From: an uncultured bacterium
GTDB lineage: Bacteria > DYJV01
Direction: 5' to 3'
DNA: 49,391 bases
Assembly (NCBI GenBank): GCA_964543655.1
Contig: CAZIZE010000042.1
Span: 1 to 49,391 of the forward strand
A model generated the notes under the pieces. The model did not search any database, was not told where the DNA came from, and saw only the letters and a program-made list of their open reading frames with translations. The position numbers and the translations under genes were made by a program. Position 1 is the first letter of the stretch; each line of letters begins with the position of its first letter. Shown here piece after piece: positions 22,852-37,776 of the stretch.

Positions 22852-24513
22852 TTACCATACAATATGAGTTATTTTAGCTTTTTTAATTTCAGGTCTTGTG
22901 TAATCTGGAAGGAGCATAGGTGATTGTCTATCTGTTTCAATTCCTGCTTCTTTTAATTCTTTCTCATATTTCCTAATATGCTCAAGGGAGAGTTTGCCTA
23001 TTTTAATCTCTTTTCCCTTAACATATTGGCCTGCATTTCTTCCTGCCCTTCTTCCAAATACTGTAATATCAAGCAATGAATTTCCCATTAACCTATTTTC
23101 ACCATGCACACCACCACTTGCCTCTCCAGCAACATAAAGCCCGGGAATATTTGTCTCTGCAGAATCATTAATTTTCAAACCACCATTTTGATAATGAAGT
23201 GTTGGAAAAACAAGCATGGGCTCTTTACTAATATCAATATTGTATCGTTTAAACTGAATATACTTTGCTGGCAATTCTTTTTCAACTGTTCCTGGCCCTT
23301 CAAGCATATCAATCATAGGTGAGTCAAGCCAAACTCCTACTCTTCCAGTTGGTGTAACTATGCCAAGACCCCTCTCTATACATTCTCTGATAATACATGA
23401 AGATTCAACATCTCTTGGCTCTCTTTCAAATACAAACTGCTCACCTTTTATATTCAAAAGATTTGCACCAAGCCCTCTTACCTTTTCAGTAATAAGAAGT
23501 CCTATATTCTGCTCAGGAAAAGCAGCTCCAGTAGGGTGATACTGAGTAGAATGCATAAAAGCAAATGGAACACCTGCTCTATAACCTATTACAAGTCCAT
23601 CTGCAGTGGCACCATAATGGTTGGTTGTGGCAAAACCCTGAATATGCAACCTGCCATAACCACCAGTTGCAATAATAACTGCTTTAGCTTTAACCACAAA
23701 AAACTCCTCTGTCTCCATATTGTACAGAACAGCACCTGCTGCTTGACCATTTTCATCAAGCACAATTTCAACAGCAGGTGAAAATTCAAGCACCTCAATA
23801 TCATCACATCTATTCCTAACTTCATCTCTTAAAACCCTCATTATTTCAGAACCTGTCATATCACCAGCTGAATGCATTCTTTTCCTGCATGTGCCACCAC
23901 CATGCCTTGTTTTTAAATTGCCATTCTCATCTTTGTCAAACATCATTCCAAGGTCTTCAAGCCACCTAATAACAAGTGGCGCATCATTGGTAAGTGCAGC
24001 AACAAGGTCAGGGTTGTTGGTAAAATGTCCACCACCCATAACATCAAGGTAATGATAATAAGGTGAATCTGGCTTCCTTGTAGCACCCTGAATTCCTCCC
24101 TCAGCCATTACTGTATTTGCATCTCCATGACGAAGCTTTGTGGCAATGATAACTTTGCACCCCTGCTCCTGAGCAAGTAAAGCTGCAGAACTACCAGCAC
24201 CTCCACCGCCTATTACGAGCACATCTGTTTCATACTTTACAAGGCTTTCAATATCAATATCCGGGTTAATTCTGCTGTGAGCTTCCAGAACATCAGCAAA
24301 TTCATCTGGGTAAACCTCACCTTTACTTGGTCCCACTTTTACAGCCCGTCTTCCTTCAGATTTATAGTCAGGATGAAATTTGCTTAAAACTTCTTCCCTC
24401 TGTTCAAGTGTCAAAGGAGGAAACATCTCTCCATTTCTTGCTTTATCAACTCTTGCAGGTCTTGTAGCTTCAACCTTTTTTATTAGTTCTTTCATTTCAG
24501 GTGTGTATCCCAT
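22852..24513 (-). CDS. Fumarate reductase/succinate dehydrogenase-type flavoprotein (TfrA-like, probably non-covalent FAD)
   Basis: VIGGGGAG, NTVMAEGG, IATGGYG, QYHPTG, TEKVRG, PRDVES, PTLHYQNGG, HGENRLMGNSL; about 90 aa N-terminal extension. Confidence 0.88.
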   Translation of the reverse strand: MGYTPEMKELIKKVEATRPARVDKARNGEMFPPLTLEQREEVLSKFHPDYKSEGRRAVKVGPSKGEVYPDEFADVLEAHSRINPDIDIESLVKYETDVLVIGGGGAGSSAALLAQEQGCKVIIATKLRHGDANTVMAEGGIQGATRKPDSPYYHYLDVMGGGHFTNNPDLVAALTNDAPLVIRWLEDLGMMFDKDENGNLKTRHGGGTCRKRMHSAGDMTGSEIMRVLRDEVRNRCDDIEVLEFSPAVEIVLDENGQAAGAVLYNMETEEFFVVKAKAVIIATGGYGRLHIQGFATTNHYGATADGLVIGYRAGVPFAFMHSTQYHPTGAAFPEQNIGLLITEKVRGLGANLLNIKGEQFVFEREPRDVESSCIIRECIERGLGIVTPTGRVGVWLDSPMIDMLEGPGTVEKELPAKYIQFKRYNIDISKEPMLVFPTLHYQNGGLKINDSAETNIPGLYVAGEASGGVHGENRLMGNSLLDITVFGRRAGRNAGQYVKGKEIKIGKLSLEHIRKYEKELKEAGIETDRQSPMLLPDYTRPEIKKAKITHIVW

Positions 24514-24548
24514 TTTTTGCTCCTTTATTTAAATTTTACAATTTTATA

Positions 24549-25331
24549 TTATAGATACTCTGTTTCTTGTGGCATCCATGTGCCATCATGAGTTGCTGGT
24601 TCCATCTCTCTTTCAACATATCTCTTTTTCAATTCTTCAAGTGGTAACTTCTTAAGCTCATTTAACATTTTCTCATATTTACCCTCTTCTATCTGCTTTG
24701 TCCTTTCAGGTAAATATGGATCTTTTGGAACTAAATATTTACCATACAATCTTCTACAAAGTTGAGCAACGTGATAATGCTGAATCTGAGCAGGACATCT
24801 TGAAGAACATAATCCACATTGAATACAATCAAATGAAAGCTTTGCAACTTTGGCTATATCGCCTCTCATTGCTGCATTTATGTAACCCATTACATCAATA
24901 TCCATTGGGCATGCTTTTGAACATGTATTACACCCTACACATTTTAACACTTCAGGATAAAGAGCCATAATTGTATCAGCAGTAGCAGAGGTATTGTTAA
25001 TGTCATATCTGGCTCTATTAGCAGGATAAAAAGGAATCTGAGCAATGTACATATTTTCCTGAACAACTGTCTGACATGCAAGCCCAAAATTTAATCTATA
25101 GTCTCCATAAATTCTATATACAGTACCACATGCACCGCAGATACCACCACGGCAACCACAAGCTCTAATAAATTTATATCCTGCATATTCTATAGCTTTT
25201 TGAATGGTAATTGTCTCTGGAACCATATACTTCTTGCCCATAATATATACTGGAATCTCTTTTGCACCTTCTGGAAGCACAGGTCTGTCACCAGTAGCAA
25301 TGTTAATTTGCTGTTTTTTTACCTCGCTCAT
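24549..25331 (-). CDS. Fumarate reductase-type iron-sulfur subunit ([2Fe-2S] + 2x[4Fe-4S])
   Basis: CRGGICGAC...LACQ, CVGCNTCSKACP, CIQCGLCSSRCP; start at 25331 after GGAGG SD. Confidence 0.85.
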   Translation of the reverse strand: MSEVKKQQINIATGDRPVLPEGAKEIPVYIMGKKYMVPETITIQKAIEYAGYKFIRACGCRGGICGACGTVYRIYGDYRLNFGLACQTVVQENMYIAQIPFYPANRARYDINNTSATADTIMALYPEVLKCVGCNTCSKACPMDIDVMGYINAAMRGDIAKVAKLSFDCIQCGLCSSRCPAQIQHYHVAQLCRRLYGKYLVPKDPYLPERTKQIEEGKYEKMLNELKKLPLEELKKRYVEREMEPATHDGTWMPQETEYL

Positions 25332-25396
25332 TTTATCCTCCATAAATTTTTAATTAATAATGTTAAGCAAATTAAATCTTTCGTAAAATCATTATA

Positions 25397-26518
25397 TTAT
25401 TCATTTGTGCCTGCTTCTGCAACAAGCTCATTCTCCCTGAATGTTGTCACTGGAGCTGGCTCATCAAAGCTCTCACCAGCCTTATATTCAAGCATTTTTT
25501 GAACATTGTCAGCCACACTAATAAAAACAGTTGAAACATCTATATTATTTGGGCACGCACTTGAGCATAACCCGCATGCTATACAGGAGCTTGACATATG
25601 GTTTAATCTTGTAAGATGAAACATTAATGTATTTTCAAGCATCCTAAGTGCACCTTTTCTCTCTGCCCATCCAGTAATCATATCAGCTGAATGGTCAAAA
25701 GTAGGGCTCCTAAATACACATTCTTTACAATAGCAAATCGGGCATGCAACCATACAGTTGTGACATCTAATACATTTTGAAAATATTTTTTGTAAAGACT
25801 CAAGAGATGAGGTTTCTTTTCTAAAACTTTCTAAAATATCCTTTTTTTGCCTGGATTTTTCATCTTTAATTTTATTTATAATACCTTCCCTTTTAGAGAG
25901 GTCAATATTTTGATTTTCTATACTATCCTTTAGCTTTGAATCATCTTTTGCAATAATCATAACTTCATTATTCTCTGAGCCAAAATATCCTAAAACAGCA
26001 TCAACTAAATTAAGCGATGTAGCTGGGACATCACACATTGTGCATGTTTTTCTAAAAGAATACCCTTCAACTGATTTAGTATCACCACTGTTATACTTAG
26101 AAATAAAATTGTTAATATAATCTTCATTGTTTAATAAAATTTCTTGAAAATCATTAACCTCATAAGTGCCAATACAATCTACTGCCATAAGAAAACAATC
26201 ATCAAGGTTAACCTGTTTAAATTTTGTTAATTCAACTATTGCCTTTATTTCACATGGCTTTGCAATTATTAACAATTTTTTACCAGATTTGGTAAAAGTA
26301 AGATTTTTTGCAATTCTACCAGTCTGAACTAAGATTACAGGCACAAAGGGATTGGTTCCATCAAGCATTTCAGCTGAGCTAACAAGGGTCTGTATATAAT
26401 TATCTTTTGCACTATTCAACTTTGGTATAAGAATTTCGTCAACTATCCCTTCTTCAAGTAGCTTTTTCAGATACTCTTTTACACCTTCAATCCCCTTCAC
26501 TTTATTTGTAACAGGCAT
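25397..26518 (-). CDS. FdhB/FrhB-like (FlxC-like) iron-sulfur protein
   Basis: KPCEIKAIVEL..KQV, DCIGT, CTMC, CIRCHNCMVACPICYCKEC, FHLTRLNH, CIACGLCSSACP. Confidence 0.8.
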   Translation of the reverse strand: MPVTNKVKGIEGVKEYLKKLLEEGIVDEILIPKLNSAKDNYIQTLVSSAEMLDGTNPFVPVILVQTGRIAKNLTFTKSGKKLLIIAKPCEIKAIVELTKFKQVNLDDCFLMAVDCIGTYEVNDFQEILLNNEDYINNFISKYNSGDTKSVEGYSFRKTCTMCDVPATSLNLVDAVLGYFGSENNEVMIIAKDDSKLKDSIENQNIDLSKREGIINKIKDEKSRQKKDILESFRKETSSLESLQKIFSKCIRCHNCMVACPICYCKECVFRSPTFDHSADMITGWAERKGALRMLENTLMFHLTRLNHMSSSCIACGLCSSACPNNIDVSTVFISVADNVQKMLEYKAGESFDEPAPVTTFRENELVAEAGTNE

Positions 26519-26551: not shown

Positions 26552-26980
26552 TTAAGCGTCCCATGCAAGCTTTAATTTTGCTGGACCCTTATTTTTTATA
26601 TGGTTTGTAAATTCAGTAACTGTATCTGCAAACATTTTACCTTCACTTGCACTTATCCATCTCAGCCAAACTCTGTCTTCTTCAAGACCAAACTGTCTTA
26701 AAATATTTTTTAATATGGCAATTCTTCTTCTTGCTTTGAAATTACCTGATTGGTAGTGACAATCTCCTGGATGGCAACCACCAATTAATACACCATCAGC
26801 ACCTTCAAGTAATGATTTAAGAACATAAACTACATCTATACCACCAGAGCACATTAGATGAACAACTCTAATATTTGGTGGATATTGTTGCCTTGTTGTA
26901 CCTGCAAGGTCAGCACCTGTGTATGTACACCAGTGACACAGAAAAGCAATTATTCTTGGTTCAAATTTTTCATCAGCCAT
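26552..26980 (-). CDS. mvhD: MvhD/FlxD-type [2Fe-2S] adaptor subunit
   Basis: FEPRIIAFLCHWCTYTGADLAG, MCSG, GADGVLIGGCHPGDCHY, WISASEG. Confidence 0.92.
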   Translation of the reverse strand: MADEKFEPRIIAFLCHWCTYTGADLAGTTRQQYPPNIRVVHLMCSGGIDVVYVLKSLLEGADGVLIGGCHPGDCHYQSGNFKARRRIAILKNILRQFGLEEDRVWLRWISASEGKMFADTVTEFTNHIKNKGPAKLKLAWDA

Positions 26981-27142: not shown

Positions 27143-30136
27143 TTAAATCAATTTATCAACAAATTCCAGTATCTGCCCCTTTTCAAACCCAAATTGCTGA
27201 GCAGCACCATTTGGACAGGCCATTACACATGCACTGCAACCTTCACAAATTGTTTCATAAACTTTGGCTATTTTCTTTTCCTCATCAATAATTCTTGCGT
27301 CAAATGGGCATATTTCCACACAAATTCCACAGCCGCTGCAAAATCTCTCTATAACAAATGATTTTCTTTCTATTGATACAAGCTCATTCTTTGCAAGAAA
27401 AATAGATGCTCTTGCAGCAGCAGCATAACCTTGAGCAATTGCTTCATTTATATGCTTAGGTGCATGGCAAAGGCCACACATAAAAATATCTTTTTTCATA
27501 AATGTAAGAATTCCTGCCTTTTTATTAGCTTCTTTGAAAAAATTAAACCTATCAATAGGAATTCCAAAAATCTCTGCAATCTCTCTGTTGTCATTTGCTT
27601 CAACACCTGTGCTGAGCACAAGCATATCAACATCTCTATCTATTCTCTCACCTATAATAGTATCTTCAAAAGAAACTGAGACCTTACCTTCTGAAACATT
27701 CACTTCAGGCTTTTTATCAACACTATAAGGGATAAAAATAATTCCTCTATTCCTTGCCTCTCTGTAAAAATTTTCATAAAATCCGTAGGCTCTAATATCT
27801 CTGTAAAGAACTATTATTGAAATATCAGGAAACAGATTTTTAAGTTTTAAAGCATTTTTCAGAGCATGAGTGCAGCAAACTCTGCTACAATACTCACGTG
27901 CACCTTTCTCCCTTGATTGAACACATTGAATCATAACAACATTATTTAAATTTTCAGGTAAGTTATCATTTGCAATTAACTTTTCAAGTTCAACCTGAGT
28001 AACTATTTTATCTGATTCTCCATATGAATAAATAGAAGGCTTAACTTCTCTACCACCAGTAGCCAGAATAGTAACACCATGCTCAATAGAGAGCTCTTTA
28101 TCTCCAGAAACTACCTCTGTTACCCTGTTTCCTACCATACCTTCTGATGATTTAATTTGTGCATTTGTAATTATTTCAATGTTATTGTGATTATTGACTT
28201 TTTCAATTAATAATTTAATATTGCTCTGAATATCTGTACCCTGCAATGTATAATATGCATCCAATAATCTTCCACCAATTTTATCACTTTTTTCAACAAT
28301 ATAAACCTTACTCCCCTGTTCTGCAAGGGAAAGAGCTGCACTTATCCCTGCTGCTCCTGCACCCACTACAAGAGCAGAATTTTTAATAGGAGAGGTTGTT
28401 TGTTTTGCTCCTCTGTTTTTCAAAACTTTATGTATAGCTGAGTTTATTAATAAAGATGATTTTTTGGTTAATATTTGATTACCTGTGTTACTTGCAAAAA
28501 TACACTGCTCTCTTAAATTAACAAATTCAAAATTTAACATTGAATAACCAGCTAATTTAAAATCGTTAAAAAAAGCTTCAAGCTCTCTAACTGAGCATCC
28601 TCCCACAACAAGTCTGTCAAGAGCATTATCTGAAATAATTTTTTTCACTTCATTTAAAGTTTCTTTATTGCAAAGTTTATCAATTGTACCTGTGTAAACA
28701 ACCTGATTTAAATTTTTACTCTTTTGCAAAATCAAATCAATATCAATACTTTCTTCAATAATATTTCCACATTTACAAATTAAAACCCCAACCCTGGGAT
28801 TTTCAACTTCTGAAGGAGCAACCAAAGATGGAGTAAATGGTGCAGAATCAAGTTTGAGTTTTGATAAAACTTTTGCTGCAACACCTGTACCCTCAGTGGT
28901 AGTTTCTGGAATATCTTTAGGACTGATAAAAGACCCGGCAACATAAATACCGGGCACATTTGTTTCAAATGGCTCAAATTCATTGCTCTGTGCAAAATTA
29001 AACTCATTAACATCTATTTTTGAAATTTTTATTAATTTCTTTGTTTCTTCATTCTGATAAAATCCAAGAGATAACACAGCTATATCAAAATCAGCTTCTT
29101 TTAGCTCTCCATTTTCATAATATGTTATTGTAATAACTCTATCTTTTCCATGTTCTTTTATTGTGGAAACATGACATCTCACAAACTTAATTCCATATTC
29201 ATCTATTGCCCTCTGATAGTATTGCTCATAATCTTTTCCAAAAGCTCTAATATCCATATAGAAAAAGGTAATTTCAAGTTCCGGGATTCTATCCTTTGCA
29301 ATCATTGCTTGCTTTAAAGCAAACATACAGCAAATAGATGAACAGTATGGATTTCCTTTTTTCCTGATATCCCTTGAGCCAACACATTGTAAAAAAGCTA
29401 TTTTTTTAGGATTCTTTCCGCTAAATGGTATTTTAGGAATCCCAAGAGTAGGCCCAGAGGGACTAATAAGCCTTTCAAATTGAACAGATGACAACACATT
29501 TTCATTATAACCAAATCCAAATTCTTCTTTAATATTACCTTTAACAGCTGAAAATCCTGGTGTAAGAACAATTTTGGAAGCTGTAAGTTCAATGTTTTTT
29601 TCCTCTATGTTATCAAGATTTATAGCTGATACAGGGCAAATTTCTACACATTTTTTACATTTTGTGCAGTTTTCAAGGTCAAGGAAGTAGCTTTTCTTAA
29701 TATTTTTGGGATAAAATTTAAAAACTGCTTTCCTTTTTTCCACACCTTCACCAAACTCATGTGGCACCTCAACCTCACAAACTTCTTCACATTTACCGCA
29801 ATCTATACACAAATCATTATTAACGGGATTTGCATTGATTTTAAGATTTATCTGAAAATTCCCATCTTCTCCCAATATATTTTCAACAAAAGCATTGCCA
29901 ATAAAATTTATATTTTCTCTTAAATTGCATTCAATAAATGGGCAAAAAGCAGGTGGCTCTGGAGATAAAAAACACACTCCACATGAATTAGTGGGAAATT
30001 GATTATCCAGTAATGGAAAATAACCACCCATTGCAACTTTCCTGTCAATAAGGTGAACCTTTACACCTCTGTCTGCAAGTGCAAGTGCTGCACTCATTCC
30101 TGCAAAACCAGCACCAATAATTGCTACTTCGCTCAT
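27143..30136 (-). CDS. Tandem double HdrA-like flavoprotein
   Basis: 997 aa with two Rossmann motifs (GAGFAG, GAGAAG), two CVxSR...YCSxxCC motifs, central CKCG...REQC domain, inserted and C-terminal ferredoxin domains. Confidence 0.9.
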   Translation of the reverse strand: MSEVAIIGAGFAGMSAALALADRGVKVHLIDRKVAMGGYFPLLDNQFPTNSCGVCFLSPEPPAFCPFIECNLRENINFIGNAFVENILGEDGNFQINLKINANPVNNDLCIDCGKCEEVCEVEVPHEFGEGVEKRKAVFKFYPKNIKKSYFLDLENCTKCKKCVEICPVSAINLDNIEEKNIELTASKIVLTPGFSAVKGNIKEEFGFGYNENVLSSVQFERLISPSGPTLGIPKIPFSGKNPKKIAFLQCVGSRDIRKKGNPYCSSICCMFALKQAMIAKDRIPELEITFFYMDIRAFGKDYEQYYQRAIDEYGIKFVRCHVSTIKEHGKDRVITITYYENGELKEADFDIAVLSLGFYQNEETKKLIKISKIDVNEFNFAQSNEFEPFETNVPGIYVAGSFISPKDIPETTTEGTGVAAKVLSKLKLDSAPFTPSLVAPSEVENPRVGVLICKCGNIIEESIDIDLILQKSKNLNQVVYTGTIDKLCNKETLNEVKKIISDNALDRLVVGGCSVRELEAFFNDFKLAGYSMLNFEFVNLREQCIFASNTGNQILTKKSSLLINSAIHKVLKNRGAKQTTSPIKNSALVVGAGAAGISAALSLAEQGSKVYIVEKSDKIGGRLLDAYYTLQGTDIQSNIKLLIEKVNNHNNIEIITNAQIKSSEGMVGNRVTEVVSGDKELSIEHGVTILATGGREVKPSIYSYGESDKIVTQVELEKLIANDNLPENLNNVVMIQCVQSREKGAREYCSRVCCTHALKNALKLKNLFPDISIIVLYRDIRAYGFYENFYREARNRGIIFIPYSVDKKPEVNVSEGKVSVSFEDTIIGERIDRDVDMLVLSTGVEANDNREIAEIFGIPIDRFNFFKEANKKAGILTFMKKDIFMCGLCHAPKHINEAIAQGYAAAARASIFLAKNELVSIERKSFVIERFCSGCGICVEICPFDARIIDEEKKIAKVYETICEGCSACVMACPNGAAQQFGFEKGQILEFVDKLI

Positions 30137-30982: not shown

Positions 30983-31022
30983 CTTCACTCCTGACTATTT
31001 TTTAATATTTATTTTCATCTGT

Positions 31023-31652: not shown

Positions 31653-33635
31653 CTATGATTCAAGTACTATTTTTAAATCTGGCTCCTGAAAAGTATTAAT
31701 CATTCTAATAGTTTGAATACTTGTCTGATTTATTAATTCACATGCTTTATTTGGGCAAGCTGCTATACAAGCACCACATCCCTGACATAGAGCTTTGTTA
31801 ACATCTGAAATTTTAGTTATATCATTTAACTGCCTTGCTCCATAAGGGCAGATATTCACACACACTCCACATCCACTACACACAAGTGGGTCAACTGTTG
31901 CTATTAATGGATCCTGGCTTAATTTATCATTTGCAAAAAGAGTAAGTATTTTACCTGTTGATGCAAGTGCCTGAGACACAGAGTCAGTAGTATCTTTTGG
32001 TGATTGAGCACACCCTGCAAGATAAACTCCTTTGGTCGAGCTTTCAACAGGGTAAAGTTTAATATGGGTTTCTGAAAAAAATCCATATTCATCAATGGTA
32101 GCTCTCAATTTTTTAGCAAGCTCTTCCACTCCATCAACTGGAACCATTGCATTTGCAAGAACTACAAGGTCAACTTTTACTTCAAGAGCTTCTCCTGTTA
32201 ATGTATCTGCTGTTTTAACTATTAACTTATCATTTTCCTTAAAAATTTTCGAAACTCTTCCACGGATGTAAACTATTCTTTCATTTTCTAATCCTGAATG
32301 GTAAAACTCCTCAAAATCTTTTGAATCTGTTCTAATATCCATATATGATATAAATGCTTTCCCATCTGGCACTTTCTGCTTAAACAACCTTGCCTGCTTT
32401 GCAGTATAAATACAGCATACTCTTGAACAATATGGCTTATGAAACTCAGGGTCTCTTGACCCGGCACATTTTACCCATAAAACAGTCTTTGCTTCCTCTC
32501 CATTTGATGGCTTTATAATTTTACCACCAGTTGGCCCATCTGGGTCAAGCATTCGTTCAAAAGTAAGTGAATCAATAACATCTTCAATCTCTCCACCACC
32601 CCATTCTGGAAAATTATTTGAACTGTATAGTTTGTATCCTGTTGCAATTACAATAGCACCAACAAGCTCTTTAACAATTTCATCTTTCATGTTAAAATCA
32701 ATTGCGCTCTCTTTGCAAATCTCAACACATTTATTGCATTCACCTCTATTTAAACTAATACAATTTGCTGAATCAATAACCAATCTTTTTGGTAATGCTT
32801 TATCAGTGAGATAATGTATGGCTTTTCTTTTTGAAAGTCCTCTATTATACTCATCTAAAACTTCAACAGGGCATACTTCAATACATTTATTGCAATTGTT
32901 ACACTTATTGTAATTAACAAATGAAGCTTTTTTCTTTATATTAACCTCAAAATTTCCAACATAACCATCAAGATCCTCAATTTCACTGTAAGTATACAGA
33001 GTAATATTGGGATGGTTAATAACTATATCTGATTTCTCTTTAATATAATCTGATGCTTTTTTGAAATAAGGCACTGTTTTATATATTTGTAATAATTTCC
33101 CACCTATTGCAGGTTCTTTTTCAACAAGAACAACCTCATATCCTGCCTCTGCAAGGTCAATTGAAGCCATTAAACCACTAATACCACCACCTATAACAAG
33201 TGTTCTTTTATTTAAACTTACCTCTATAGGCACAAGCTCTATATTTTGCCTAACTTTTTCTATTGTTGCTTTTATAATATTAATTGCTTTTGCAGTAGCA
33301 ACAGGCTTATTACCCTGATGAACCCAGCTGCACTGCTCTCTAATATTTGCTATTTCAACAAGAAAAGGATTAAGTCCTACACTATTAGCAGCTTTTCTAA
33401 ATGTATTTTCATGCATCCTTGGTGAACAACTGCAAACAACTACACCATTTAAATTGTCTTCCTTAATATGCTCCTTAACAAGCTGCTGCCCAGGGTCTGA
33501 GCACATATACATATAATTAGTGGCAAATACAACATCAGGTTCTTCTTTAATAACCTCAACCACTTTGTTAACATCAACAGATGATGCAATGTTGGCACCA
33601 CACCAGCATACGAAAACACCTATTCTTTTGGGCAT
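31653..33635 (-). CDS. hdrA: Heterodisulfide reductase subunit A-like, full length
   Basis: RIGVFVCWCGANI, MCSDPG, CSPRMHE, REQCSWVH, GGGISG, CAGSRD..YCSRVCC, C-terminal ferredoxin. Confidence 0.92.
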   Translation of the reverse strand: MPKRIGVFVCWCGANIASSVDVNKVVEVIKEEPDVVFATNYMYMCSDPGQQLVKEHIKEDNLNGVVVCSCSPRMHENTFRKAANSVGLNPFLVEIANIREQCSWVHQGNKPVATAKAINIIKATIEKVRQNIELVPIEVSLNKRTLVIGGGISGLMASIDLAEAGYEVVLVEKEPAIGGKLLQIYKTVPYFKKASDYIKEKSDIVINHPNITLYTYSEIEDLDGYVGNFEVNIKKKASFVNYNKCNNCNKCIEVCPVEVLDEYNRGLSKRKAIHYLTDKALPKRLVIDSANCISLNRGECNKCVEICKESAIDFNMKDEIVKELVGAIVIATGYKLYSSNNFPEWGGGEIEDVIDSLTFERMLDPDGPTGGKIIKPSNGEEAKTVLWVKCAGSRDPEFHKPYCSRVCCIYTAKQARLFKQKVPDGKAFISYMDIRTDSKDFEEFYHSGLENERIVYIRGRVSKIFKENDKLIVKTADTLTGEALEVKVDLVVLANAMVPVDGVEELAKKLRATIDEYGFFSETHIKLYPVESSTKGVYLAGCAQSPKDTTDSVSQALASTGKILTLFANDKLSQDPLIATVDPLVCSGCGVCVNICPYGARQLNDITKISDVNKALCQGCGACIAACPNKACELINQTSIQTIRMINTFQEPDLKIVLES

Positions 33636-33654: not shown

Positions 33655-34983
33655 TTAACAACTTTTTTTCGATAATTTGTTTTCTAATTTTTCAAATAAA
33701 ACATGAACTTTACTTGCTGCTGCACTTGCATGTGCAGTAGAATCAGCAATATCCCTAATCCCCTGACAACACCCGGCAAGGTAAATACCCTCTCTGTTTG
33801 TTTCATTTGAGCCAGTTTTGTAATCTTTTTCTTTGAAAAATCCAAGCTCATTAATATCTATTTTTAAAATTTCTGATAATTTTTTAGCCTCTAAATTGGG
33901 CTCCACAGCTGCTGCCAGCACTACCATATCAGCTACAACTTCTATTTTTTGCCCTGTTAATGTATCTGAACCCCATACAACAACTTTATCTCCATCCTGG
34001 AAGATCTTTGAAACTTTTCCTCTAATATAAACTATTCTCTCCTCTTCCATTGTTTGCTGGATAAATTGCTCATATCCCTTGCCAGTTGACCTTATATCTA
34101 TGTAAAATATGTAGGCTTTACCATCATGCACTTTATGTTTGTATAATCTTGCATGCTTTGCAGTATACATGCAGCATATTCTTGAGCAATATGGCTTGTG
34201 AAACTCAGGGTCTCTTGAGCCTGCACACTGGACAAAAACAATATCCTTAGGAATTTTACCATCAGATGGTCTCTTAACAACTCCAGTAGTTGGACCAGAT
34301 GCTGACAAAAATCTCTCCATAGTTAACCCATCAATTACATCTGGTATATTTCCAGCACCATAATCTTTAAGGTTGGATTTGTCATATATTTGAAAACCTG
34401 TTGCAACTATTATAGCACCCACTTCTTCTTCAAAAAAACTTTCTGTTTGCTTATAATCAATGGCACCAACCGGGCAAACTTTGGAACAAACTCCACATTT
34501 GCCCTTTGTAAGCATTCTACAATAATCAGCATTTATAACTGGTTTATTGGGCACAGCCTGCGGTGATAGAGTGTATATTGCTTTACTTTTTCCAGCATCT
34601 CTTTCAAATAGTGATGGCACTTTTGCTGGGCATTTCTCTACACAAGTTCCACAACCAGTGCATTTGCTCCAATCAACATAGGCTGGTTTTCTTCTAATTT
34701 TGATTTTAAAATTACCTGCCTCTCCCTCAACATTTACAACTTCTGAGTAGGTGTAAAGTTTAATATTGGGATGTTGGCCTGTTTCAACTGTCCGTGGAGT
34801 AAGTGTGCATTGAGCACAGTCAAGTGTGGGGAATGTCTCTGATAGCTGAAGCATTCTACCACCAACACTTGGAAGCCTTTCAACCATAACTACTTCGTAA
34901 CCTGCATTTCCTATATCAATTGCAGCTGTAATTCCTGCTATTCCACCGCCAATAACAAGAACTCTTTTTATTAATTCTGCCAT
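33655..34983 (-). CDS. hdrA: Short HdrA-like flavoprotein lacking the N-terminal and C-terminal Fe-S domains
   Basis: 442 aa starting at VLVIGGGIAG; FPTLDCAQC, inserted ferredoxin, CAGSRD..YCSRICCMYTAK. Confidence 0.88.
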   Translation of the reverse strand: MAELIKRVLVIGGGIAGITAAIDIGNAGYEVVMVERLPSVGGRMLQLSETFPTLDCAQCTLTPRTVETGQHPNIKLYTYSEVVNVEGEAGNFKIKIRRKPAYVDWSKCTGCGTCVEKCPAKVPSLFERDAGKSKAIYTLSPQAVPNKPVINADYCRMLTKGKCGVCSKVCPVGAIDYKQTESFFEEEVGAIIVATGFQIYDKSNLKDYGAGNIPDVIDGLTMERFLSASGPTTGVVKRPSDGKIPKDIVFVQCAGSRDPEFHKPYCSRICCMYTAKHARLYKHKVHDGKAYIFYIDIRSTGKGYEQFIQQTMEEERIVYIRGKVSKIFQDGDKVVVWGSDTLTGQKIEVVADMVVLAAAVEPNLEAKKLSEILKIDINELGFFKEKDYKTGSNETNREGIYLAGCCQGIRDIADSTAHASAAASKVHVLFEKLENKLSKKSC

Positions 34984-34994: not shown

Positions 34995-35870
34995 TCAAGA
35001 AATAAAGCTTTTTTCTTTTAAAACAGGTAATGGATCAACAAAGTTTCTTTCAAATTCAAGCACATCAATATCAAGTCCCATAGCAAGACCTAAGAGCTGT
35101 GTAAAATATACAACTGGAATTGTTTTAAAATCTTCATACATCTCCATTAATACTTTCTGTCTATCGTCAAGGTTAAACTGACATAAAGGGCATGAAGTAA
35201 CAATCATATCAGCACCATTTTTAATAGCATTATCTATTATATTTTTTGAGCATCTATTTGCTGTATCAACATTGTTCATTACCTGAAAAGCTCCGCAACA
35301 TTCATTTTTAAAAGGGAAATAAATAGGCTCAGCTCCTAATGATTCCATAAAGTTTTCAAAAATAGAAGGATTCTCAGGATCATCAAACTGAATCTCTTTA
35401 TGTGGCCTTAATAGAAGACAACCATAATACACAGCTACTTTCAAACCTTTTAAAGGTTTTTCAACATTTTCTTTTATTTTATCAAAACCTATTTCATTTT
35501 TTAAAATTTCAAGATAATGAACAACATTTACCTCACCATGATAATCTCTCTCAATAAATTCCGTGATTTTATACCTTCTTTCTTCATCATGCTGTAAAAC
35601 ATAATTGGTTCTTTTTAAAACATTAAAACAAACTGAGCAAAGAGCAACAAGCTTGTCATACCCTGCTAATTTTGTGTCTGCAAGGACTCTTGAACATGAT
35701 GCAAGCCCCATGTGATAATCGTTTACAAGAGGGAATGATGCTCCACAACATGTCCATTTATCAAGCTCTTTTAATTCAAATCCTAATTTTTTAGCAGATT
35801 CTCTACCTGCATGATCAAGATGTGTTGCTTTGGTATATAATGTACAACCTGGAAAATAAGCATATTCCAT
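34995..35870 (-). CDS. hdrB: Heterodisulfide reductase subunit B (copy 1)
   Basis: YFPGC/WTCCG/LCSVC and YYGCLLLRP/ECCG/SCPLC. Confidence 0.92.
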   Translation of the reverse strand: MEYAYFPGCTLYTKATHLDHAGRESAKKLGFELKELDKWTCCGASFPLVNDYHMGLASCSRVLADTKLAGYDKLVALCSVCFNVLKRTNYVLQHDEERRYKITEFIERDYHGEVNVVHYLEILKNEIGFDKIKENVEKPLKGLKVAVYYGCLLLRPHKEIQFDDPENPSIFENFMESLGAEPIYFPFKNECCGAFQVMNNVDTANRCSKNIIDNAIKNGADMIVTSCPLCQFNLDDRQKVLMEMYEDFKTIPVVYFTQLLGLAMGLDIDVLEFERNFVDPLPVLKEKSFIS

Positions 35871-35884: not shown

Positions 35885-36295
35885 TTAAAGTGAAGTAAAC
35901 TTTCTATAACAGCTAATAAAAGCTATTTGAGGAGCTCTTTTTCTATAATCCTCATCAAAATCAACTACTTCTATTTTACTGCCTTCTCTTCGCAGCTTAA
36001 TCATTCTGCATGCTTCAGCAATTTTAGAAAAATCAACACCTTTAGGGCATCTGTTAAAGCACATAACACAAGATGCGCAAATCCAGATAGTTTGGCTATT
36101 AAGCACTTTATCATACATACCAAGTTGTAAATATCTAATTGCCTGAGAAGGCATTATATCCATTTCATCAACAGCCGGGCATCCAGCAGAACATTTACCG
36201 CATTGATAACATTGATATATATTCTGGCTGCTAATCTCTTCTATTTTTTCTATAATTTCAGAGTCAATATTTTCTTTTAAAATTTTACTTTTCAT
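35885..36295 (-). CDS. hdrC: Heterodisulfide reductase subunit C (copy 1, short)
   Basis: CYQCGKCSAGCP, IWICASCVMCFNRCPKG; ATG at 36295 after GGAGGAG SD. Confidence 0.9.
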   Translation of the reverse strand: MKSKILKENIDSEIIEKIEEISSQNIYQCYQCGKCSAGCPAVDEMDIMPSQAIRYLQLGMYDKVLNSQTIWICASCVMCFNRCPKGVDFSKIAEACRMIKLRREGSKIEVVDFDEDYRKRAPQIAFISCYRKFTSL

Positions 36296-36371
36296 AACTC
36301 CTCCATGTATCAATCAATATTTATTTTCGTAATATTATGCAATATGTTCTTTTAATTTTAAAAAAAATTTA

Positions 36372-36926
36372 CTATTTTGAAAATTTTTTTCTTCCAATTT
36401 CGTACAGGTCATTACCATAAATATCATTAACCACAACAGCAGGAAATTTTTCAACAACAAGCCTTCTAACTGCTTCTGGCCCAAGATCTTCATATGCTAT
36501 TATTTCAGCTTCTTTAACACACTCGCTTATTAAAGCACCTGCTCCACCAATTGCAGCAAAATAAACTGCCTTATATTTTACCATAGCATTTTTAACTTCT
36601 TCTGACCTTGTACCTTTACCTATCATACCTTTTAATCCTTTTTCAATAAGCAGTGGTGAATATGGATCCATTCTATAACTTGTAGTTGGACCGCATGCAC
36701 CAATTACCTTTCCTGGCTTTGGCGGTGTTGGACCTACAAAATATATAATTTGACCTTTTATATCAAATGGCAATTCTTTACCCTCTTTTATTAAATCAGT
36801 TAATCTTTTATGCGCTGCATCCCTACCAGTATATATTGTACCTGAAATCAATACATTATCACCTGCTTTTAATGACTCTAAAACCTTATCATCTACAGGA
36901 GTGGTTATTTCTATTAAATCAGACAT
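36372..36926 (-). CDS. Class I fumarate hydratase / tartrate dehydratase family, beta subunit
   Basis: GTIYTGRDAAHKRL, GPTTSYRMD, MIGKG, DLGPEA; start at 36926 after AGGAG. Confidence 0.93.
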   Translation of the reverse strand: MSDLIEITTPVDDKVLESLKAGDNVLISGTIYTGRDAAHKRLTDLIKEGKELPFDIKGQIIYFVGPTPPKPGKVIGACGPTTSYRMDPYSPLLIEKGLKGMIGKGTRSEEVKNAMVKYKAVYFAAIGGAGALISECVKEAEIIAYEDLGPEAVRRLVVEKFPAVVVNDIYGNDLYEIGRKKFSK

Positions 36927-36936
36927 TTTACTCTCC

Positions 36937-37776
36937 TTAAATAATAACTTCTTTATGCCTTGCTGCATGGCACTGAATATTCATAGCCACAGGAAGTGAT
37001 GCTATATGGCAGGGCTCTTTAATGATATGCACAGCAAGACAATACACTCTACCACCTAATCCTTGAGGTCCCATTCCAAGATTGTTGATTTTTTCAACCA
37101 ATTCTTTCTCTATTTTATCAAGCTCAGGATCAGGGTTGCTACTGCCTATTTCACGTAATAGTGCTTTTTTTGATAAGATTGCACTTCTTTCAAAATTGCC
37201 ACCAATCCCCACACCTATTATAACAGGGGGGCAAGGATTAGGACCAGCAGCTGATGCTCGTTCTATTATCATTTTTTTTATTCCTTCAATTCCATCTGCT
37301 GGCTTTAACATCTGTTGCAAACTCATATTTTCACTGCCACCACCTTTAGGTGCAACTGTAATTTTTACTTTATCTCCTGAAACTATTTTAGTGTGTATAA
37401 CAGCAGGTGTATTATCCCCTGTGTTTTTTCTTGTAAAAGGGTCACACATAGACTTTCTCAAATACCCTTCTTTATATCCCTCTCTCACTCCATCATTAAT
37501 AGCATCGTATAAATTACCACCTACAAAATGAACATCCTGGCCTATTTCAAGAAAAACAACTGCCACACCAGTATCCTGACATATAGGAATTTGCTCATTT
37601 TTGGCAACTTCAGCATTTTGCAGCAACACATTTAATATATGTTTACCTGTATCTGATTCTTCAACTTCCAGACCTCTTTTAAATGCATTAATAACATCAT
37701 TACCAAGATAGTAATTAGCATCCATGCACATATTTTTCACTTTTTCTTTAACATCTAACACATTGATTTCTCTCAT
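36937..37776 (-). CDS. Class I fumarate hydratase / tartrate dehydratase family, alpha subunit
   Basis: PICQDTG, NTGDNTPA, KGGGSEN, NPCPP, PCHIASLP, QCHAARH; start inferred at MREINV (37776). Confidence 0.93.
   Translation of the reverse strand: MREINVLDVKEKVKNMCMDANYYLGNDVINAFKRGLEVEESDTGKHILNVLLQNAEVAKNEQIPICQDTGVAVVFLEIGQDVHFVGGNLYDAINDGVREGYKEGYLRKSMCDPFTRKNTGDNTPAVIHTKIVSGDKVKITVAPKGGGSENMSLQQMLKPADGIEGIKKMIIERASAAGPNPCPPVIIGVGIGGNFERSAILSKKALLREIGSSNPDPELDKIEKELVEKINNLGMGPQGLGGRVYCLAVHIIKEPCHIASLPVAMNIQCHAARHKEVII

What the first reader, a model, noticed from the sequence alone, without database searches (positions are those of the whole stretch)
22852..37776. Fumarase - double Hdr - MvhD - soluble fumarate reductase cluster: candidate cytoplasmic Hdr-coupled fumarate-reducing complex
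Seen: 13 co-oriented genes with gaps of about 160 bp or less: fumarase alpha/beta, hdrC-hdrB-hdrA(short)-hdrA-hdrC-hdrB-hdrA(double)-mvhD-fdhB/flxC-like, then an Frd-type Fe-S subunit and flavoprotein. No FrdC/SdhC anchor, MvhA/G, FdhA, FlxA/FlxB or AprAB gene is in the window. Established: HdrABC-MvhD complexes perform flavin-based electron bifurcation; in HdrABC-FlxABCD the genes after flxD-flxC are flxB-flxA (NADH module); methanogen thiol:fumarate reductase TfrAB pairs an FrdA-like subunit with an Fe-S subunit carrying HdrB-like CCG domains. Inference: the fumarate reductase occupies the position of the NADH/H2/formate module, giving a quinone-independent malate to fumarate to succinate route linked to thiol/disulfide and ferredoxin chemistry in a bacterium, possibly as part of a reductive TCA branch. 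I know of no biochemical description of this exact arrangement but cannot exclude one.
Basis: partly seen in the sequence, partly recalled or inferred. Interest (0 to 1): 0.8.

Follow-up and report, generated by a model that had tools for sequence, protein, structure and literature searches.

The report
Hdr-linked soluble fumarate reductase operon
This bacterium keeps its only fumarase, a membrane-free fumarate-reductase-like enzyme and an unusually large set of heterodisulfide-reductase-type electron-splitting proteins in one operon, an elaborate version of a gene partnership that is widespread in anaerobes, has been proposed in print since 2019 and has never been tested biochemically.

Summary
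There are 13 co-oriented genes with gaps of -32 to 162 nt. The same 13-gene order is kept in 3 of 3 genomes of the same family.

The flavoprotein and its Fe-S partner form a distinct, highly conserved family found in at least 596 species genomes. The family branches outside TfrA, SdhA/FrdA and NadB. It lacks the covalent-FAD histidine and the C-terminal domain.

In 80 related loci the pair usually sits beside Hdr genes:
- 30 loci have hdrC-hdrB directly upstream.
- 13 loci have the window's arrangement.
- 11 loci have hdrA(-mvhD).
- Other loci have Flx-Hdr.
- Fumarase and sucC recur nearby.

The reading as an Hdr-coupled, quinone-independent fumarate reductase is therefore supported. It is not new as an idea. 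The same idea was proposed for tubeworm symbionts (PMC6315080), Pseudoclostridium thermosuccinogenes (PMC7282089) and Cloacimonadota (PMC8542988). This scan has also found the same kind before on other DNA.

New here is the variant: two HdrCB pairs, three HdrA-type genes (one a tandem fusion), an FdhB-like adaptor, and no recognisable NADH, H2 or formate module. The electron donor and any bifurcation remain inferred. I found no biochemical study.

The parts
36937..37776 (-). fumA, class I fumarase alpha subunit. The open frame runs on to a TTG at 37836; the likely start is the ATG at 37776.
   Evidence: NF004885 scores 419.4 bits against a cut-off of 276, and PF05681 scores 393.9 bits. The start was read. 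It is the only Fumerase-family hit in the genome.
36372..36968 (-). fumB, class I fumarase beta subunit. It overlaps fumA by 32 nt.
   Evidence: NF005310 scores 279.5 bits against a cut-off of 238, and PF05683 scores 194.9 bits.
35885..36313 (-). hdrC1, an HdrC-like protein with two [4Fe-4S] motifs (142 aa). This is the type that accompanies the reductase in other genomes.
   Evidence: It hits Fer4 dicluster families, and TIGR03290 at 66.1 bits, below the cut-off of 160. Eight Cys are invariant in 30 sequences.
34995..35870 (-). hdrB1, an HdrB-like protein with two CCG domains (291 aa). This type lies directly upstream of the Fe-S/flavoprotein pair in 30 of 80 loci.
   Evidence: PF02754 scores 75 bits. 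TIGR03288 scores 205.2 (cut-off 345) and SdhE NF042965 scores 186.6 (cut-off 500). Ten Cys are invariant.
33655..34983 (-). Short HdrA (442 aa). It has the FAD domain with the inserted ferredoxin domain, and lacks the N-terminal and C-terminal cluster domains.
   Evidence: It aligns to positions 138-564 of the HdrA2 model NF040770 at 474.9 bits.
31653..33635 (-). Full-length HdrA (660 aa) without a fused MvhD.
   Evidence: It aligns to NF040770 positions 1-642 at 691.2 bits, below the cut-off of 1100.
31023..31565 (-). hdrC2, the second HdrC-like protein (180 aa).
   Evidence: TIGR03290 scores 73.6 bits, and it hits Fer4 dicluster families.
30155..30988 (-). hdrB2, the second HdrB-like CCG protein (277 aa). 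This type precedes the tandem HdrA gene in window-like loci.
   Evidence: PF02754 scores 86.9 bits, TIGR03288 scores 148.1 and NF042965 scores 169.6.
27143..30136 (-). Tandem HdrA-HdrA fusion (997 aa). Residues 3-427 resemble the short HdrA. Residues about 444-997 form a second HdrA with an N-terminal domain and a C-terminal ferredoxin domain but no inserted ferredoxin.
   Evidence: Searches show the HdrA matches. In one search, residues 430-997 align to 8rvu_a at positions 9-239 and 323-649 (E 2.1e-83). Similarity to GltD is limited to the first Rossmann motif (E about 1e-3).
26552..26980 (-). mvhD, an MvhD/FlpD-type [2Fe-2S] adaptor (142 aa).
   Evidence: PF02662 scores 169.2 bits, and VhuD NF045873 scores 132.7 bits, below the cut-off of 215.
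25397..26518 (-). FdhB/FrhB-like flavo-iron-sulfur protein (373 aa).
   Evidence: It matches PDB sequences 9t1s_M at E 6.4e-30 (residues 14-354) and 7bkb_E at E 3.7e-22. The only Pfam hits are Fer4 families.
24549..25343 (-). FrdB-like Fe-S subunit (264 aa). It has one [2Fe-2S]-type motif (C64, C69, C72, C90) and two CxxCxxCxxxCP motifs.
   Evidence: The sequence is. Twelve Cys are invariant in 30 sequences. Weak matches are dhsB at 26.5 bits and TfrB at 33.9 bits. The fold search is weak. A natural fusion with the flavoprotein exists (P0136).
22852..24513 (-). Fumarate-reductase-like flavoprotein (553 aa). It has a family-specific N-terminal domain (residues 1-95), no C-terminal Sdh domain, and Asn133 at the covalent-FAD site.
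   Evidence: PF00890 matches residues 97-480 at 245.9 bits, with no Succ_DH_flav_C hit. TfrA NF004900 scores 350.6 bits against a cut-off of 718. Foldseek top hits are 7d6v_A and 1kf6_A.
37777..37955 (.). Divergent intergenic region between fumA and the trigger-factor gene. It is presumably the promoter region of the cluster.
   Evidence: Gene positions are. Promoter-like sites lie at 37938-37909 and 37919-37890 on the minus strand. These are consensus matches only.

Best explanation
The cluster encodes one soluble, multi-flavin iron-sulfur system that reduces fumarate without quinones.

FumAB is the only fumarase found in the genome, and it makes fumarate from malate. A divergent reductase turns fumarate into succinate. 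This reductase consists of the 553-aa flavoprotein with non-covalent FAD and the 264-aa FrdB-like Fe-S protein.

The electrons do not come from a membrane anchor. They come through Hdr-type proteins. One route is the HdrC1/HdrB1 pair, which is the reductase's most constant neighbour elsewhere. The other is the FdhB-like/MvhD adaptor pair that is encoded next to the reductase here. Both routes tie it to four HdrA-type flavin modules.

I think the most likely purpose is flavin-based electron bifurcation. The strongly exergonic reduction of fumarate (about +30 mV) would pay for the reduction of ferredoxin. Reduced ferredoxin would then serve the organism's many 2-oxoacid:ferredoxin oxidoreductases (the reductive branch to succinyl-CoA and 2-oxoglutarate) and Rnf.

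Shown here: gene content, conserved linkage, conserved cofactor and active-site residues, and placement of the family.

Inferred: the substrate (P about 0.75), a physical or electronic link to Hdr proteins (P about 0.6), ferredoxin-reducing bifurcation (P about 0.35), and the donor. The donor is not encoded in the cluster. It may be a thiol/disulfide carrier acting at the HdrB sites, or a soluble reductant acting at the FdhB-like flavoprotein.
For: Linkage:
- The 13-gene order is identical in 3 of 3 same-family genomes.
- In the best 80 of at least 596 related loci, the Fe-S gene lies within 400 nt upstream of the flavoprotein gene in 76.
- hdrC-hdrB lies directly upstream in 30, the window-type hdrA-tandem/mvhD/fdhB-like set in 13, and hdrA(-mvhD) in 11.
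- In the L010/L020-type loci, Flx-type genes (Fer4_22; NAD_binding_1 + DHODB_Fe-S_bind) lie beside the pair, between mvhD and the pair in L010 and after it in L020. sucC follows the pair in L010.

Fumarate:
- fumA/fumB flank or precede the module in several architectures (L010, L018, L022, L058, L061, L063).
- fumA lies just upstream of window-type clusters in 3 of 5 further genomes tested.
- The cluster's fumarase is the only one found in the genome.

Enzyme:
- The fold is SdhA/FrdA.
- H326, T342, E343, R346, R367, H440 and R474 are invariant in the family. H326, E343, R367, H440 and R474 are identical in all 15 rows compared with TfrA, NadB and SdhA. T342 and R346 vary only in the short-protein, N-extension or NadB rows.
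- The covalent-FAD His of the genome's own SdhA aligns to Asn133. TfrA and NadB also lack this His. From recalled knowledge, non-covalent FAD favours fumarate reduction over succinate oxidation.
- All 12 Cys of the Fe-S protein, 10 Cys of HdrB1 and 8 Cys of HdrC1 are invariant.
- A natural Fe-S/flavoprotein fusion exists.

Physiology:
- No citrate synthase was found.
- sucC is present.
- There are 7 POR_N-type oxidoreductase hits.
- RnfC is present.
- There is one MDH/LDH-family gene.

Literature (passages read): the same model is proposed in PMC6315080 (main text, Note 3, Table S1). Co-expression is reported in PMC11636981. A 'succinate operon' of fumarase, Flx-Hdr and Frd, about 4-fold regulated, is described in PMC7282089. 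An Mvh-Hdr-TFR-fumarase-SCS cluster is described in PMC8542988.
Against: - I found no biochemical or structural study of any member.
- No donor module (NADH, H2, formate) is recognisable in the window cluster. A complete bifurcation reaction therefore cannot be written.
- 11 of 80 loci have the Fe-S/flavoprotein pair with no Hdr hit upstream. Three of these have under 1 kb of upstream sequence. Two that were examined sit among multihaem cytochrome, NrfD and molybdopterin genes. Hdr is thus not an obligate partner.
- The active-site residues do not distinguish fumarate from aspartate.
- The Fe-S protein resembles the genome's own SdhB only at its Cys motifs, and its fold search is weak.
- The genome has a canonical sdhCDAB that could carry ordinary fumarate/succinate chemistry.
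- Co-transcription is not shown.
Confidence: 0.5

Rival explanations
1. There are two separate enzymes that communicate through a diffusible thiol. HdrC1/B1 plus the Fe-S protein and flavoprotein form a split thiol:fumarate reductase, with Tfr-like chemistry. The HdrA modules with HdrC2/B2, MvhD and FdhB-like form a heterodisulfide-reductase-like complex that re-reduces the disulfide. No supercomplex forms.
For: The four-gene module hdrC-hdrB-FeS-flavoprotein stands without any HdrA in the locus in 29 of the 30 such loci. Its HdrB is always of the B1 type, except in L066. Together the Fe-S protein and HdrB cover the two halves of the TfrB model NF004898 (residues 164-206 and 261-484). HdrABC/HdrL-type clusters with an FdhB-like protein and MvhD exist without Frd genes in S. 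fumaroxidans (PMC5947623 passages). The thiol-shuttle variant is one of the two models in PMC6315080 Note 3.
Against: No thiol carrier is known for this organism. No DsrC/TusE was found (though the control rang in only 1 of 14 genomes). The fixed gene order fdhB-like, FeS, flavoprotein in 13 loci and mvhD-FeS-flavoprotein in others suggests direct wiring. TfrB hits are far below the cut-off (33.9 and 45.2 bits vs 385).
Confidence: 0.2
2. HdrC1/B1 with the Fe-S protein and flavoprotein is a type-E-like quinol:fumarate reductase or succinate:quinone reductase. It sits on the membrane through the CCG protein, as SdhE does in methylmenaquinol:fumarate reductase. The HdrA genes are unrelated neighbours.
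For: HdrB1 and HdrB2 hit the SdhE anchor model NF042965 nearly as well as the HdrB model (186.6 and 169.6 bits). Menaquinone synthesis by the futalosine route is possible, given two adjacent CofH-like genes below the cut-off (their reading as mqn genes is my inference). S. fumaroxidans FrdABEF is classed as type E (PMC3570798 passages).
Against: The SdhE cut-off of 500 is not met. The partner here is an HdrC-like dicluster protein, not a hydrophobic SdhF. hdrA/mvhD genes accompany the pair in 34 of 80 loci. The genome already has sdhCDAB.
Confidence: 0.1
3. The flavoprotein acts on another substrate, such as L-aspartate (like NadB) or another unsaturated acid. The fumarase neighbourhood would then be coincidental or would serve a related hydro-lyase reaction.
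For: The conserved active-site residues are shared with NadB. The family lies outside every characterised clade. All NCBIfam hits are below the curated cut-offs. No separate NadB was found in the genome (only two homologues, this protein and SdhA).
Against: No NadA was found (the control rang in 12 of 14 genomes), so a NadB role has no pathway. The protein has an Fe-S partner with three cluster motifs. Linkage to fumarase, and in L010 to sucC, recurs across phyla. The alpha subunit passes the fumarate hydratase equivalog cut-off.
Confidence: 0.08
4. The complex runs the other way, as a confurcating or ferredoxin-assisted succinate dehydrogenase.
For: Sdh/Frd enzymes are reversible in vitro. 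A reversible role was discussed for S. fumaroxidans FrdABEF (PMC5947623 passages).
Against: Asn replaces the covalent-FAD His. Covalent FAD is needed for efficient succinate oxidation (recalled knowledge). Succinate at +30 mV cannot drive reduction of any Hdr-side acceptor. The genome has a canonical SdhCDAB carrying the His.
Confidence: 0.04

Closest known systems
'Succinate operon' of Pseudoclostridium thermosuccinogenes (fumarate hydratase, Flx-Hdr, fumarate reductase; PMC7282089, passages read; it cites a 2019 preprint that I did not read)
   Same: The gene logic and order match: fumarase first, Hdr-type bifurcation genes in the middle, an anchor-less fumarate reductase last. The published reading is the same, that succinate formation is coupled to ferredoxin reduction.
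   Different: That operon carries the FlxABCD NADH module and a single Hdr set. The window has none of FlxA or FlxB. It has two HdrCB pairs, three HdrA-type genes (one a tandem fusion) and an FdhB-like protein. I could not check whether its reductase belongs to the window's flavoprotein family, because that sequence was not held.
tfrAB-hdrCB-korDABC-hdrA-flxDCBA cluster of tubeworm symbionts and Thioflavicoccus (PMC6315080 main text, Note 3 and Table S1; PMC11636981)
   Same: An anchor-less FrdB/FrdA-like pair lies next to hdrC-hdrB and hdrA/flxD. Gammaproteobacterial loci with the same flavoprotein family (65-69% identity: L020, L033, L041) are in my set. The published model is bifurcation towards fumarate and ferredoxin/OGOR, with co-expression data.
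   Different: That cluster holds an NADH module (FlxAB), OGOR and ACL genes and serves a full rTCA cycle. The window cluster has no donor module and no kor or acl genes. No citrate synthase or ACL domain was found in the genome (the ACL search was uninformative).
Methanogen MvhADG- or FdhAB-MvhD-HdrABC complexes (PDB 5odc, 7bkb, 8rvu, 9t1s) together with thiol:fumarate reductase TfrAB
   Same: HdrA, HdrB, HdrC, MvhD and FdhB homologues are all present. The Fe-S protein plus HdrB together mirror the two halves of TfrB. Like TfrA, the flavoprotein lacks the covalent-FAD His.
   Different: All Hdr scores are below the equivalog cut-offs. There is no hydrogenase or FdhA. The flavoprotein is outside the TfrA clade and lacks the C-terminal domain. 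TfrB is one polypeptide, whereas here its parts are split. There is no evidence of CoM, CoB or F420.
HdrABC/HdrL cluster of Syntrophobacter fumaroxidans (Sfum_0819-0824; PMC5947623) and HdrL of Desulfobacterium autotrophicum (PMC2702500)
   Same: hdrABC lies next to a very large HdrA-derived protein, an MvhD and an FdhB-like Fe-S protein, with no hydrogenase.
   Different: HdrL is described as carrying NAD(P)H-binding domains. The window's 997-aa protein is a tandem of two HdrA modules with no detectable NAD(P)H module. The published cluster is not described with Frd genes.
Five-subunit soluble NADH-dependent fumarate reductase FrdABCDE of Hydrogenobacter thermophilus (Miura 2008, seen only as cited in PMC13147460 passages)
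   Same: It is a soluble, quinone-independent fumarate reductase built on an FrdA/FrdB-like pair with extra redox subunits, and it serves a reductive TCA route.
   Different: It is a purified enzyme using NADH directly. No HdrA/MvhD bifurcation module is described in the passages I read.

Membership tests
SdhA/FrdA/NadB flavoprotein superfamily | FAD_binding_2 domain and an SdhA-like fold | tested here: met
   PF00890 scores 245.9 bits over residues 97-480. Foldseek top hits are 7d6v_A (E 1.9e-25) and 1kf6_A. Model pLDDT is 71.4.
SdhA/FrdA/NadB flavoprotein superfamily | Dicarboxylate-binding and catalytic His/Arg/Thr/Glu residues (residue roles recalled from E. coli FrdA literature) | tested here: met
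   H326, T342, E343, R346, R367, H440 and R474 are invariant in 17 family members. H326, E343, R367, H440 and R474 are identical in all 15 rows compared with TfrA, NadB and SdhA. T342 and R346 match in the TfrA and SdhA rows.
Canonical SdhA/FrdA of complex II | Covalent-FAD histidine (the R-S-H-T motif) | tested here: not met
   The His of the genome's own SdhA, and of two other sequences that pass the Sdh cut-offs, aligns to Asn133. N133 is invariant in the family.
Canonical SdhA/FrdA of complex II | C-terminal Succ_DH_flav_C domain and a membrane anchor gene in the operon | tested here: not met
   There is no such Pfam hit at E <= 0.001. No anchor was found among the window ORFs. The genome's true sdhCDAB lies on contig C93.
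Thiol:fumarate reductase TfrA (NF004900) | Score over the curated cut-off and placement in the TfrA clade | tested here: not met
   The score is 350.6 bits against a cut-off of 718. In the tree, the window family lies in a clade (SH-aLRT 95) that is sister to the clade (98) holding the two TfrA-passing sequences, all Sdh/Frd and NadB.
Thiol:fumarate reductase TfrB (NF004898) | One polypeptide with an FrdB-like part and two CCG domains | tested here: not met
   The parts are split. The Fe-S protein scores 33.9 bits, HdrB1 31.7 and HdrB2 45.2 against a cut-off of 385. The cofactor motifs of both halves are present.
L-aspartate oxidase NadB (TIGR00551) | Score over the cut-off, NadB clade, and a NadA partner in the genome | tested here: not met
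   The score is 268.9 against a cut-off of 452.75. The protein is outside the NadB clade (99 support). No NadA was found in a 94% complete genome, while the control rang in 12 of 14 genomes.
CoB-CoM heterodisulfide reductase HdrABC | Equivalog-level scores for HdrA, HdrB and HdrC | tested here: not met
   HdrA scores 691.2 (cut-off 1100). HdrB scores 205.2 and 148.1 (cut-off 345). HdrC scores 66.1 and 73.6 (cut-off 160). These are Hdr-like proteins, not the methanogen enzyme.
HdrB/CCG-domain proteins | Two CCG motifs with ten cysteines for the two noncubane clusters (motif role recalled) | tested here: met
   PF02754 matches with two stretches in both HdrB proteins. C9, C41, C42, C78, C81, C151, C191, C192, C227 and C230 are invariant in 30 HdrB1-type sequences.
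FlxABCD-HdrABC | FlxA (NAD_binding_1 + DHODB Fe-S) and FlxB (Fer4_22) genes | tested here: not met
   These are absent from the window. They are present in related loci L010 and L020 beside the same Fe-S/flavoprotein pair.
HdrL (HdrA fused to NAD(P)H-binding, GltD-like domains) | A separate NAD(P)H-binding module | tested here: not met
   Residues 430-997 align to a whole HdrA (8rvu_a, E 2.1e-83). GltD chains match only residues 157-232 of that piece, at E about 1e-3. The Pfam hits are the FAD Rossmann motif.
FdhB/FrhB flavo-Fe-S subunits | Homology over the whole length; F420 or FAD site | tested here: inconclusive
   The PDB sequence match to 9t1s_M has E 6.4e-30 over residues 14-354. No FrhB_FdhB Pfam hit appears at E <= 0.001. 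The cofactor site was not examined. No CofH over the cut-off was found in the genome.
SdhB/FrdB iron-sulfur subunit | An N-terminal [2Fe-2S] ferredoxin-like domain followed by a two-cluster domain | tested here: inconclusive
   The Cys motif layout fits and is invariant. The dhsB hit is only 26.5 bits against a cut-off of 88. Similarity to the genome's own SdhB is limited to the motifs. Foldseek lists FrdB chains at ranks 6 and 11 with TM <= 0.27.
Type E SQR/MFR anchor SdhE (NF042965) | Score over the cut-off | tested here: not met
   The scores are 186.6 and 169.6 bits against a cut-off of 500.
Two-subunit class I fumarase | Alpha and beta subunits over the curated cut-offs | tested here: met
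   NF004885 scores 419.4 (cut-off 276) and NF005310 scores 279.5 (cut-off 238).
H. thermophilus NADH-dependent FrdABCDE | Similarity to its five subunits | not tested

The most novel reading that the evidence does not exclude
The window type would be a donor-module-free Hdr machine. Four HdrA-type flavins and two HdrBC arms would use a thiol/disulfide couple, or ferredoxin itself, as the mid-potential donor. They would split its electrons between fumarate (downhill, via FdhB-like/MvhD or HdrC1B1 to the non-covalent-FAD reductase) and ferredoxin (uphill). This would be a new class of flavin-based bifurcation with no pyridine nucleotide, H2 or formate. It would amount to a quinone- and membrane-independent form of fumarate respiration, with energy recovered through Rnf. 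It would also mean that fumarate, not a heterodisulfide, is the physiological high-potential acceptor of many bacterial Hdr complexes.
Probability: 0.2. Interest if true: 0.8.

Novelty: new variant of a known kind. Interest (0 to 1): 0.5.

Why it matters
What bacterial HdrABC-type complexes reduce outside methanogens is an old open question. This gene partnership points to fumarate, and the reductase family occurs in at least 596 species genomes of many phyla.

If the coupling is real, it would have three consequences. Fumarate reduction would become a source of low-potential ferredoxin without quinones or a membrane. This would change energy budgets for reductive or branched TCA routes, succinate fermentation and rTCA carbon fixation. 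It would also add a new acceptor class to flavin-based electron bifurcation.

The window adds the most elaborate version I saw, and one with no recognisable donor module. This sharpens the question of where the electrons come from.

Tried and rejected
- **HdrL reading.** I first took the 997-aa protein to be an NAD(P)H-binding HdrL, which would have supplied the donor. I rejected this. Residues 430-997 are a second whole HdrA, and GltD similarity is limited to the first Rossmann motif.
- **F420 as cofactor of the FdhB-like protein.** Only CofH-like hits below the cut-off were found, as an adjacent pair.
- **NadB role.** Rejected.
- **DsrC as thiol partner.** None was found, but the control rang in only 1 of 14 genomes, so this is weak. 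No DsrA exceeded the cut-off.
- **ATP-citrate lyase.** The PF16114 search found nothing, but nothing rang in the controls either, so it is uninformative.
- **Expression.** No RNA holder was listed for window:22800-32700.
- **Complex prediction.** No result exists.
- **Fused forms.** No forms of 969 aa or more were found at E <= 1e-100 (the tool itself calls this weak evidence).
- **Fe-S protein.** The fold search was weak, as was BLASTP against the genome's own SdhB.
- **Promoter and terminator scan.** Only consensus matches were found. Both minus-strand terminator-like sites lie inside genes.
- **RNA genes.** No tRNA and no Rfam match.
- **Taxonomy.** The kinship list jumps from 'same order' to 'same domain'.
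- **Earlier notes near this place.** None.
- **S. fumaroxidans.** I could not check whether FrdABEF or sdhAB-2 belongs to this flavoprotein family.

Full report
**Observation**

The window is contig C42 of a 2.26-Mb bacterial genome in 102 contigs, 94.3% complete. It has about 32% G+C and bacterial housekeeping genes such as RpoD, DnaG, GlyQS and HslUV.

Between 22852 and 37836 there are 13 minus-strand ORFs. The gaps between them run from -32 to 162 nt. Pfam and NCBIfam identify them in order:
- class I fumarase alpha and beta, both over the curated cut-offs
- HdrC1 and HdrB1
- a short HdrA (442 aa) and a full HdrA (660 aa)
- HdrC2 and HdrB2
- a 997-aa HdrA-derived protein
- MvhD
- a 373-aa protein that matches solved FdhB subunits (E 6.4e-30)
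- a 264-aa Fe-S protein
- a 553-aa FAD_binding_2 flavoprotein

It fits the fumA length in relatives. No anchor, hydrogenase, FdhA, FlxA/B or AprAB gene is in the window.

**The reductase**

The flavoprotein has the SdhA/FrdA fold. It keeps all residues that bind and reduce the dicarboxylate. It differs from canonical enzymes in three ways:
- It lacks the C-terminal Sdh domain.
- It carries a conserved 95-residue N-terminal domain.
- It has Asn133 where the genome's own SdhA has the histidine that binds FAD covalently.

TfrA and NadB sequences also lack that histidine. From recalled knowledge, non-covalent FAD goes with fumarate reduction rather than succinate oxidation.

All NCBIfam hits are below their cut-offs. 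The best is TfrA, at 350.6 bits against 718.

I searched 1.84 billion representatives and found 19,262 hits at E <= 0.001. I labelled 86 full-length hits with NCBIfam. That output was cut, and only the first 47 labels were seen. I then built a 51-row tree with flavocytochrome c as outgroup (quick IQ-TREE, SH-aLRT only). The window family groups with more distant proteins that share the N-terminal extension and with a group of about 400-aa proteins. This clade has support 95. It is sister to a clade, support 98, that holds every TfrA-, Sdh/Frd- and NadB-passing sequence. The family is therefore a separate deep branch, not a TfrA and not a NadB.

The Fe-S protein has one [2Fe-2S]-type and two [4Fe-4S]-type cysteine motifs. 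All 12 Cys are invariant in 30 sequences. Its similarity to SdhB is weak. A natural fusion of such an Fe-S protein with the flavoprotein exists (P0136).

**Linkage elsewhere**

They are 59-89% identical and are labelled as many phyla. I examined the best 80 loci. I called ORFs with my own simple script and labelled them by phmmer against the window's 13 proteins.

The Fe-S gene lies within 400 nt upstream of the flavoprotein gene in 76 of 80 loci. Of the other four, L011 has it further upstream, L041 is cut at the flavoprotein gene, and L072 and L079 have none. The upstream neighbours fall into these classes:

| Upstream arrangement | Loci (of 80) |
|---|---|
| hdrC-hdrB directly | 30 |
| Window-type tandem-hdrA, mvhD, fdhB-like | 13 |
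| hdrA(-mvhD) | 11 |
| Other genes lie between an Hdr-, MvhD- or FdhB/FlxC-type gene and the pair | 10 |
| fdhB-like only | 1 |
| No Hdr hit | 11 |
| No adjacent Fe-S gene (the four above) | 4 |

In the class of 10, L010 was examined: its intervening genes are FlxB- and FlxA-type and sucC follows the pair. L020, a hdrC-hdrB locus, has hdrA-flxDCBA after the pair. Among the 11 loci with no Hdr hit, three have under 1 kb of upstream sequence. Two that were examined sit among multihaem cytochrome, NrfD and molybdopterin genes.

The HdrB next to the pair is of the window's B1 type in all cases but one, L066. The B2 type precedes the tandem HdrA gene.

Fumarase genes are inside 8 of the 80 loci. 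Two of these, L069 and L081, are long ORFs with weak hits. In Dehalococcoidia-labelled loci, fumA and fumB flank the four-gene module (L061). The 10-kb flank is too short to reach fumA in window-type loci. In 5 such genomes, fumA lies 2.4-4.3 kb beyond the locus start on the same strand in 3. In one it is on another contig, and in one it was not found.

In the window's own family, 3 of 3 genomes have the flavoprotein. It is present in 0 of 2 genomes of the same order, and in 2 of 25 more distant ones. All three same-family genomes keep the identical 13-gene order.

On a tree of 79 flavoproteins, the architectures cluster but change at least 16 times. The window type sits in at least two separate clades (FastTree, midpoint root). 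The reductase pair thus behaves as a module that is plugged into different electron-input sets.

**The Hdr part**

I first read the 997-aa protein as an 'HdrL', a name used for large HdrA fusions with NAD(P)H domains (PMC2702500, PMC5947623; passages). That reading failed. Residues 3-427 match HdrA positions 141-560. Residues 430-997 match a whole second HdrA, comprising an N-terminal domain, an FAD domain without the inserted ferredoxin, and a C-terminal ferredoxin. Glutamate-synthase small-chain similarity is confined to one Rossmann motif.

The cluster therefore has four HdrA-type flavin modules, two HdrBC arms, MvhD and an FdhB-like protein. It has no recognisable NADH, H2 or formate module. 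I found no evidence for F420.

**Genome context**

- The cluster's fumarase is the only one found.
- A canonical sdhCDAB lies on contig C93.
- sucC, seven POR_N-type oxidoreductase hits, RnfC and one MDH/LDH-family gene are present.
- Not found: citrate synthase, NadA, DsrA over the cut-off and DsrC/TusE (weak control).
- The ACL search was uninformative.

This fits an anaerobe with a branched TCA. Its reductive arm runs from malate through fumarate and succinate to succinyl-CoA and 2-oxoglutarate, and it needs both a fumarate reductase and reduced ferredoxin.

**Mechanism**

Shown here:
- the genes and their conserved linkage
- the conserved cofactor and active-site residues
- the loss of the covalent-FAD site
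- the distinct family placement

Inferred:
- Fumarate made by FumAB is reduced by the Fe-S/flavoprotein pair.
- Electrons reach the pair through HdrC1/B1 and/or FdhB-like/MvhD from the HdrA flavins.
- The large potential drop to fumarate drives ferredoxin reduction by bifurcation. Fumarate is about +30 mV (PMC3570798 passage). NADH is about -320 mV and ferredoxin about -450 mV (abstract of PMC10734219, seen in the listing).
- The donor is open.

My odds are about 0.75 for fumarate as substrate, 0.6 for an Hdr link and 0.35 for bifurcation to ferredoxin.

The rivals are a split Tfr plus a separate Hdr-like complex sharing a thiol, a type-E quinol:fumarate reductase, another substrate, and the reverse direction.

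**Comparison with what is known**

The same partnership and reading are already in print (passages read):
- PMC6315080 covers tubeworm symbionts and Thioflavicoccus (main text, Note 3, Table S1).
- PMC11636981 reports co-expression.
- PMC7282089 describes the P. thermosuccinogenes 'succinate operon', with the same order of fumarase, Flx-Hdr and Frd. It cites a 2019 preprint that I did not read.
- PMC8542988 describes Cloacimonadota with Mvh-Hdr.
- PMC4914600 covers Thiomargarita.
- PMC13147460 is a review of fumarate reductase types.

My phrase and term searches listed no purification or structure of such an enzyme. Most subscription journals are outside that library.

This scan has noted the same kind on other DNA at least nine times. 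Two of those notes led me to PMC7282089 and to read PMC8542988, and I checked both.

**Verdict**

This is a real, conserved operon. The window holds a new variant of a proposed but untested kind. It has doubled HdrCB pairs, a tandem HdrA fusion, an FdhB-like adaptor and no donor module.

Noticed in passing
window 59-1690 (-) and 1985-3412 (-): Two tandem paralogous ORFs (543 and 475 aa) have Schlafen AlbA_2, HATPase_c_4 and a C-terminal winged-helix domain. Neither has an NCBIfam match. Their function is unknown. Proteins of this kind are often annotated as ATP-dependent DNA-binding regulators.
   Followed up: partly
window about 37.8-38.0 kb: The cumulative GC skew changes sign here. This is exactly where the minus-strand block (fumA and everything to its left) meets the plus-strand block (trigger factor, clpP, ilv/leu genes, dnaG, rpoD). 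It could be a strand-bias switch such as a replication origin or terminus, or simply a change in gene orientation.
   Followed up: no
L051 and L080 (loci from the search for related loci), about 4000-16200: In these delta-proteobacterial MAG loci, the same Fe-S/flavoprotein pair has no Hdr neighbours. It sits between multihaem cytochrome c, several Fer4 proteins, an NrfD-type membrane protein and a molybdopterin oxidoreductase. This would be a membrane- or quinone-linked version of the module.
   Followed up: partly
L009, L010, L018, L021, L022, about 7 kb downstream of the flavoprotein gene: A second, more distant flavoprotein paralogue (556-576 aa, about 200 bits) is followed by an SdhB-like gene and an HdrB/SdhE-like gene. 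It looks like a type-E Frd/Sdh set next to the Flx-Hdr-linked one.
   Followed up: no
Representatives P0158, P0166, P0169, P0176, P0188, P0189, P0200, P0205, P0209, P0236: A clade of flavoproteins of about 400 aa (support 99) has neither the N-terminal extension nor a C-terminal domain. It is sister to or nested among relatives of the window family. All of these are below every NCBIfam cut-off. Their function is unknown.
   Followed up: no
G000 contig C41:19426-21435: Two adjacent CofH-like radical-SAM genes score just below the CofH cut-off, at 337.8 and 355.4 bits against 374.1. I take them as likely futalosine-pathway menaquinone genes, but this is untested.
   Followed up: no
Kinship list: The genome's relatives run from same genus, family and order straight to 'same domain'. 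The organism therefore seems to belong to a sparsely sampled deep lineage. Its phylum was not determined.
   Followed up: no
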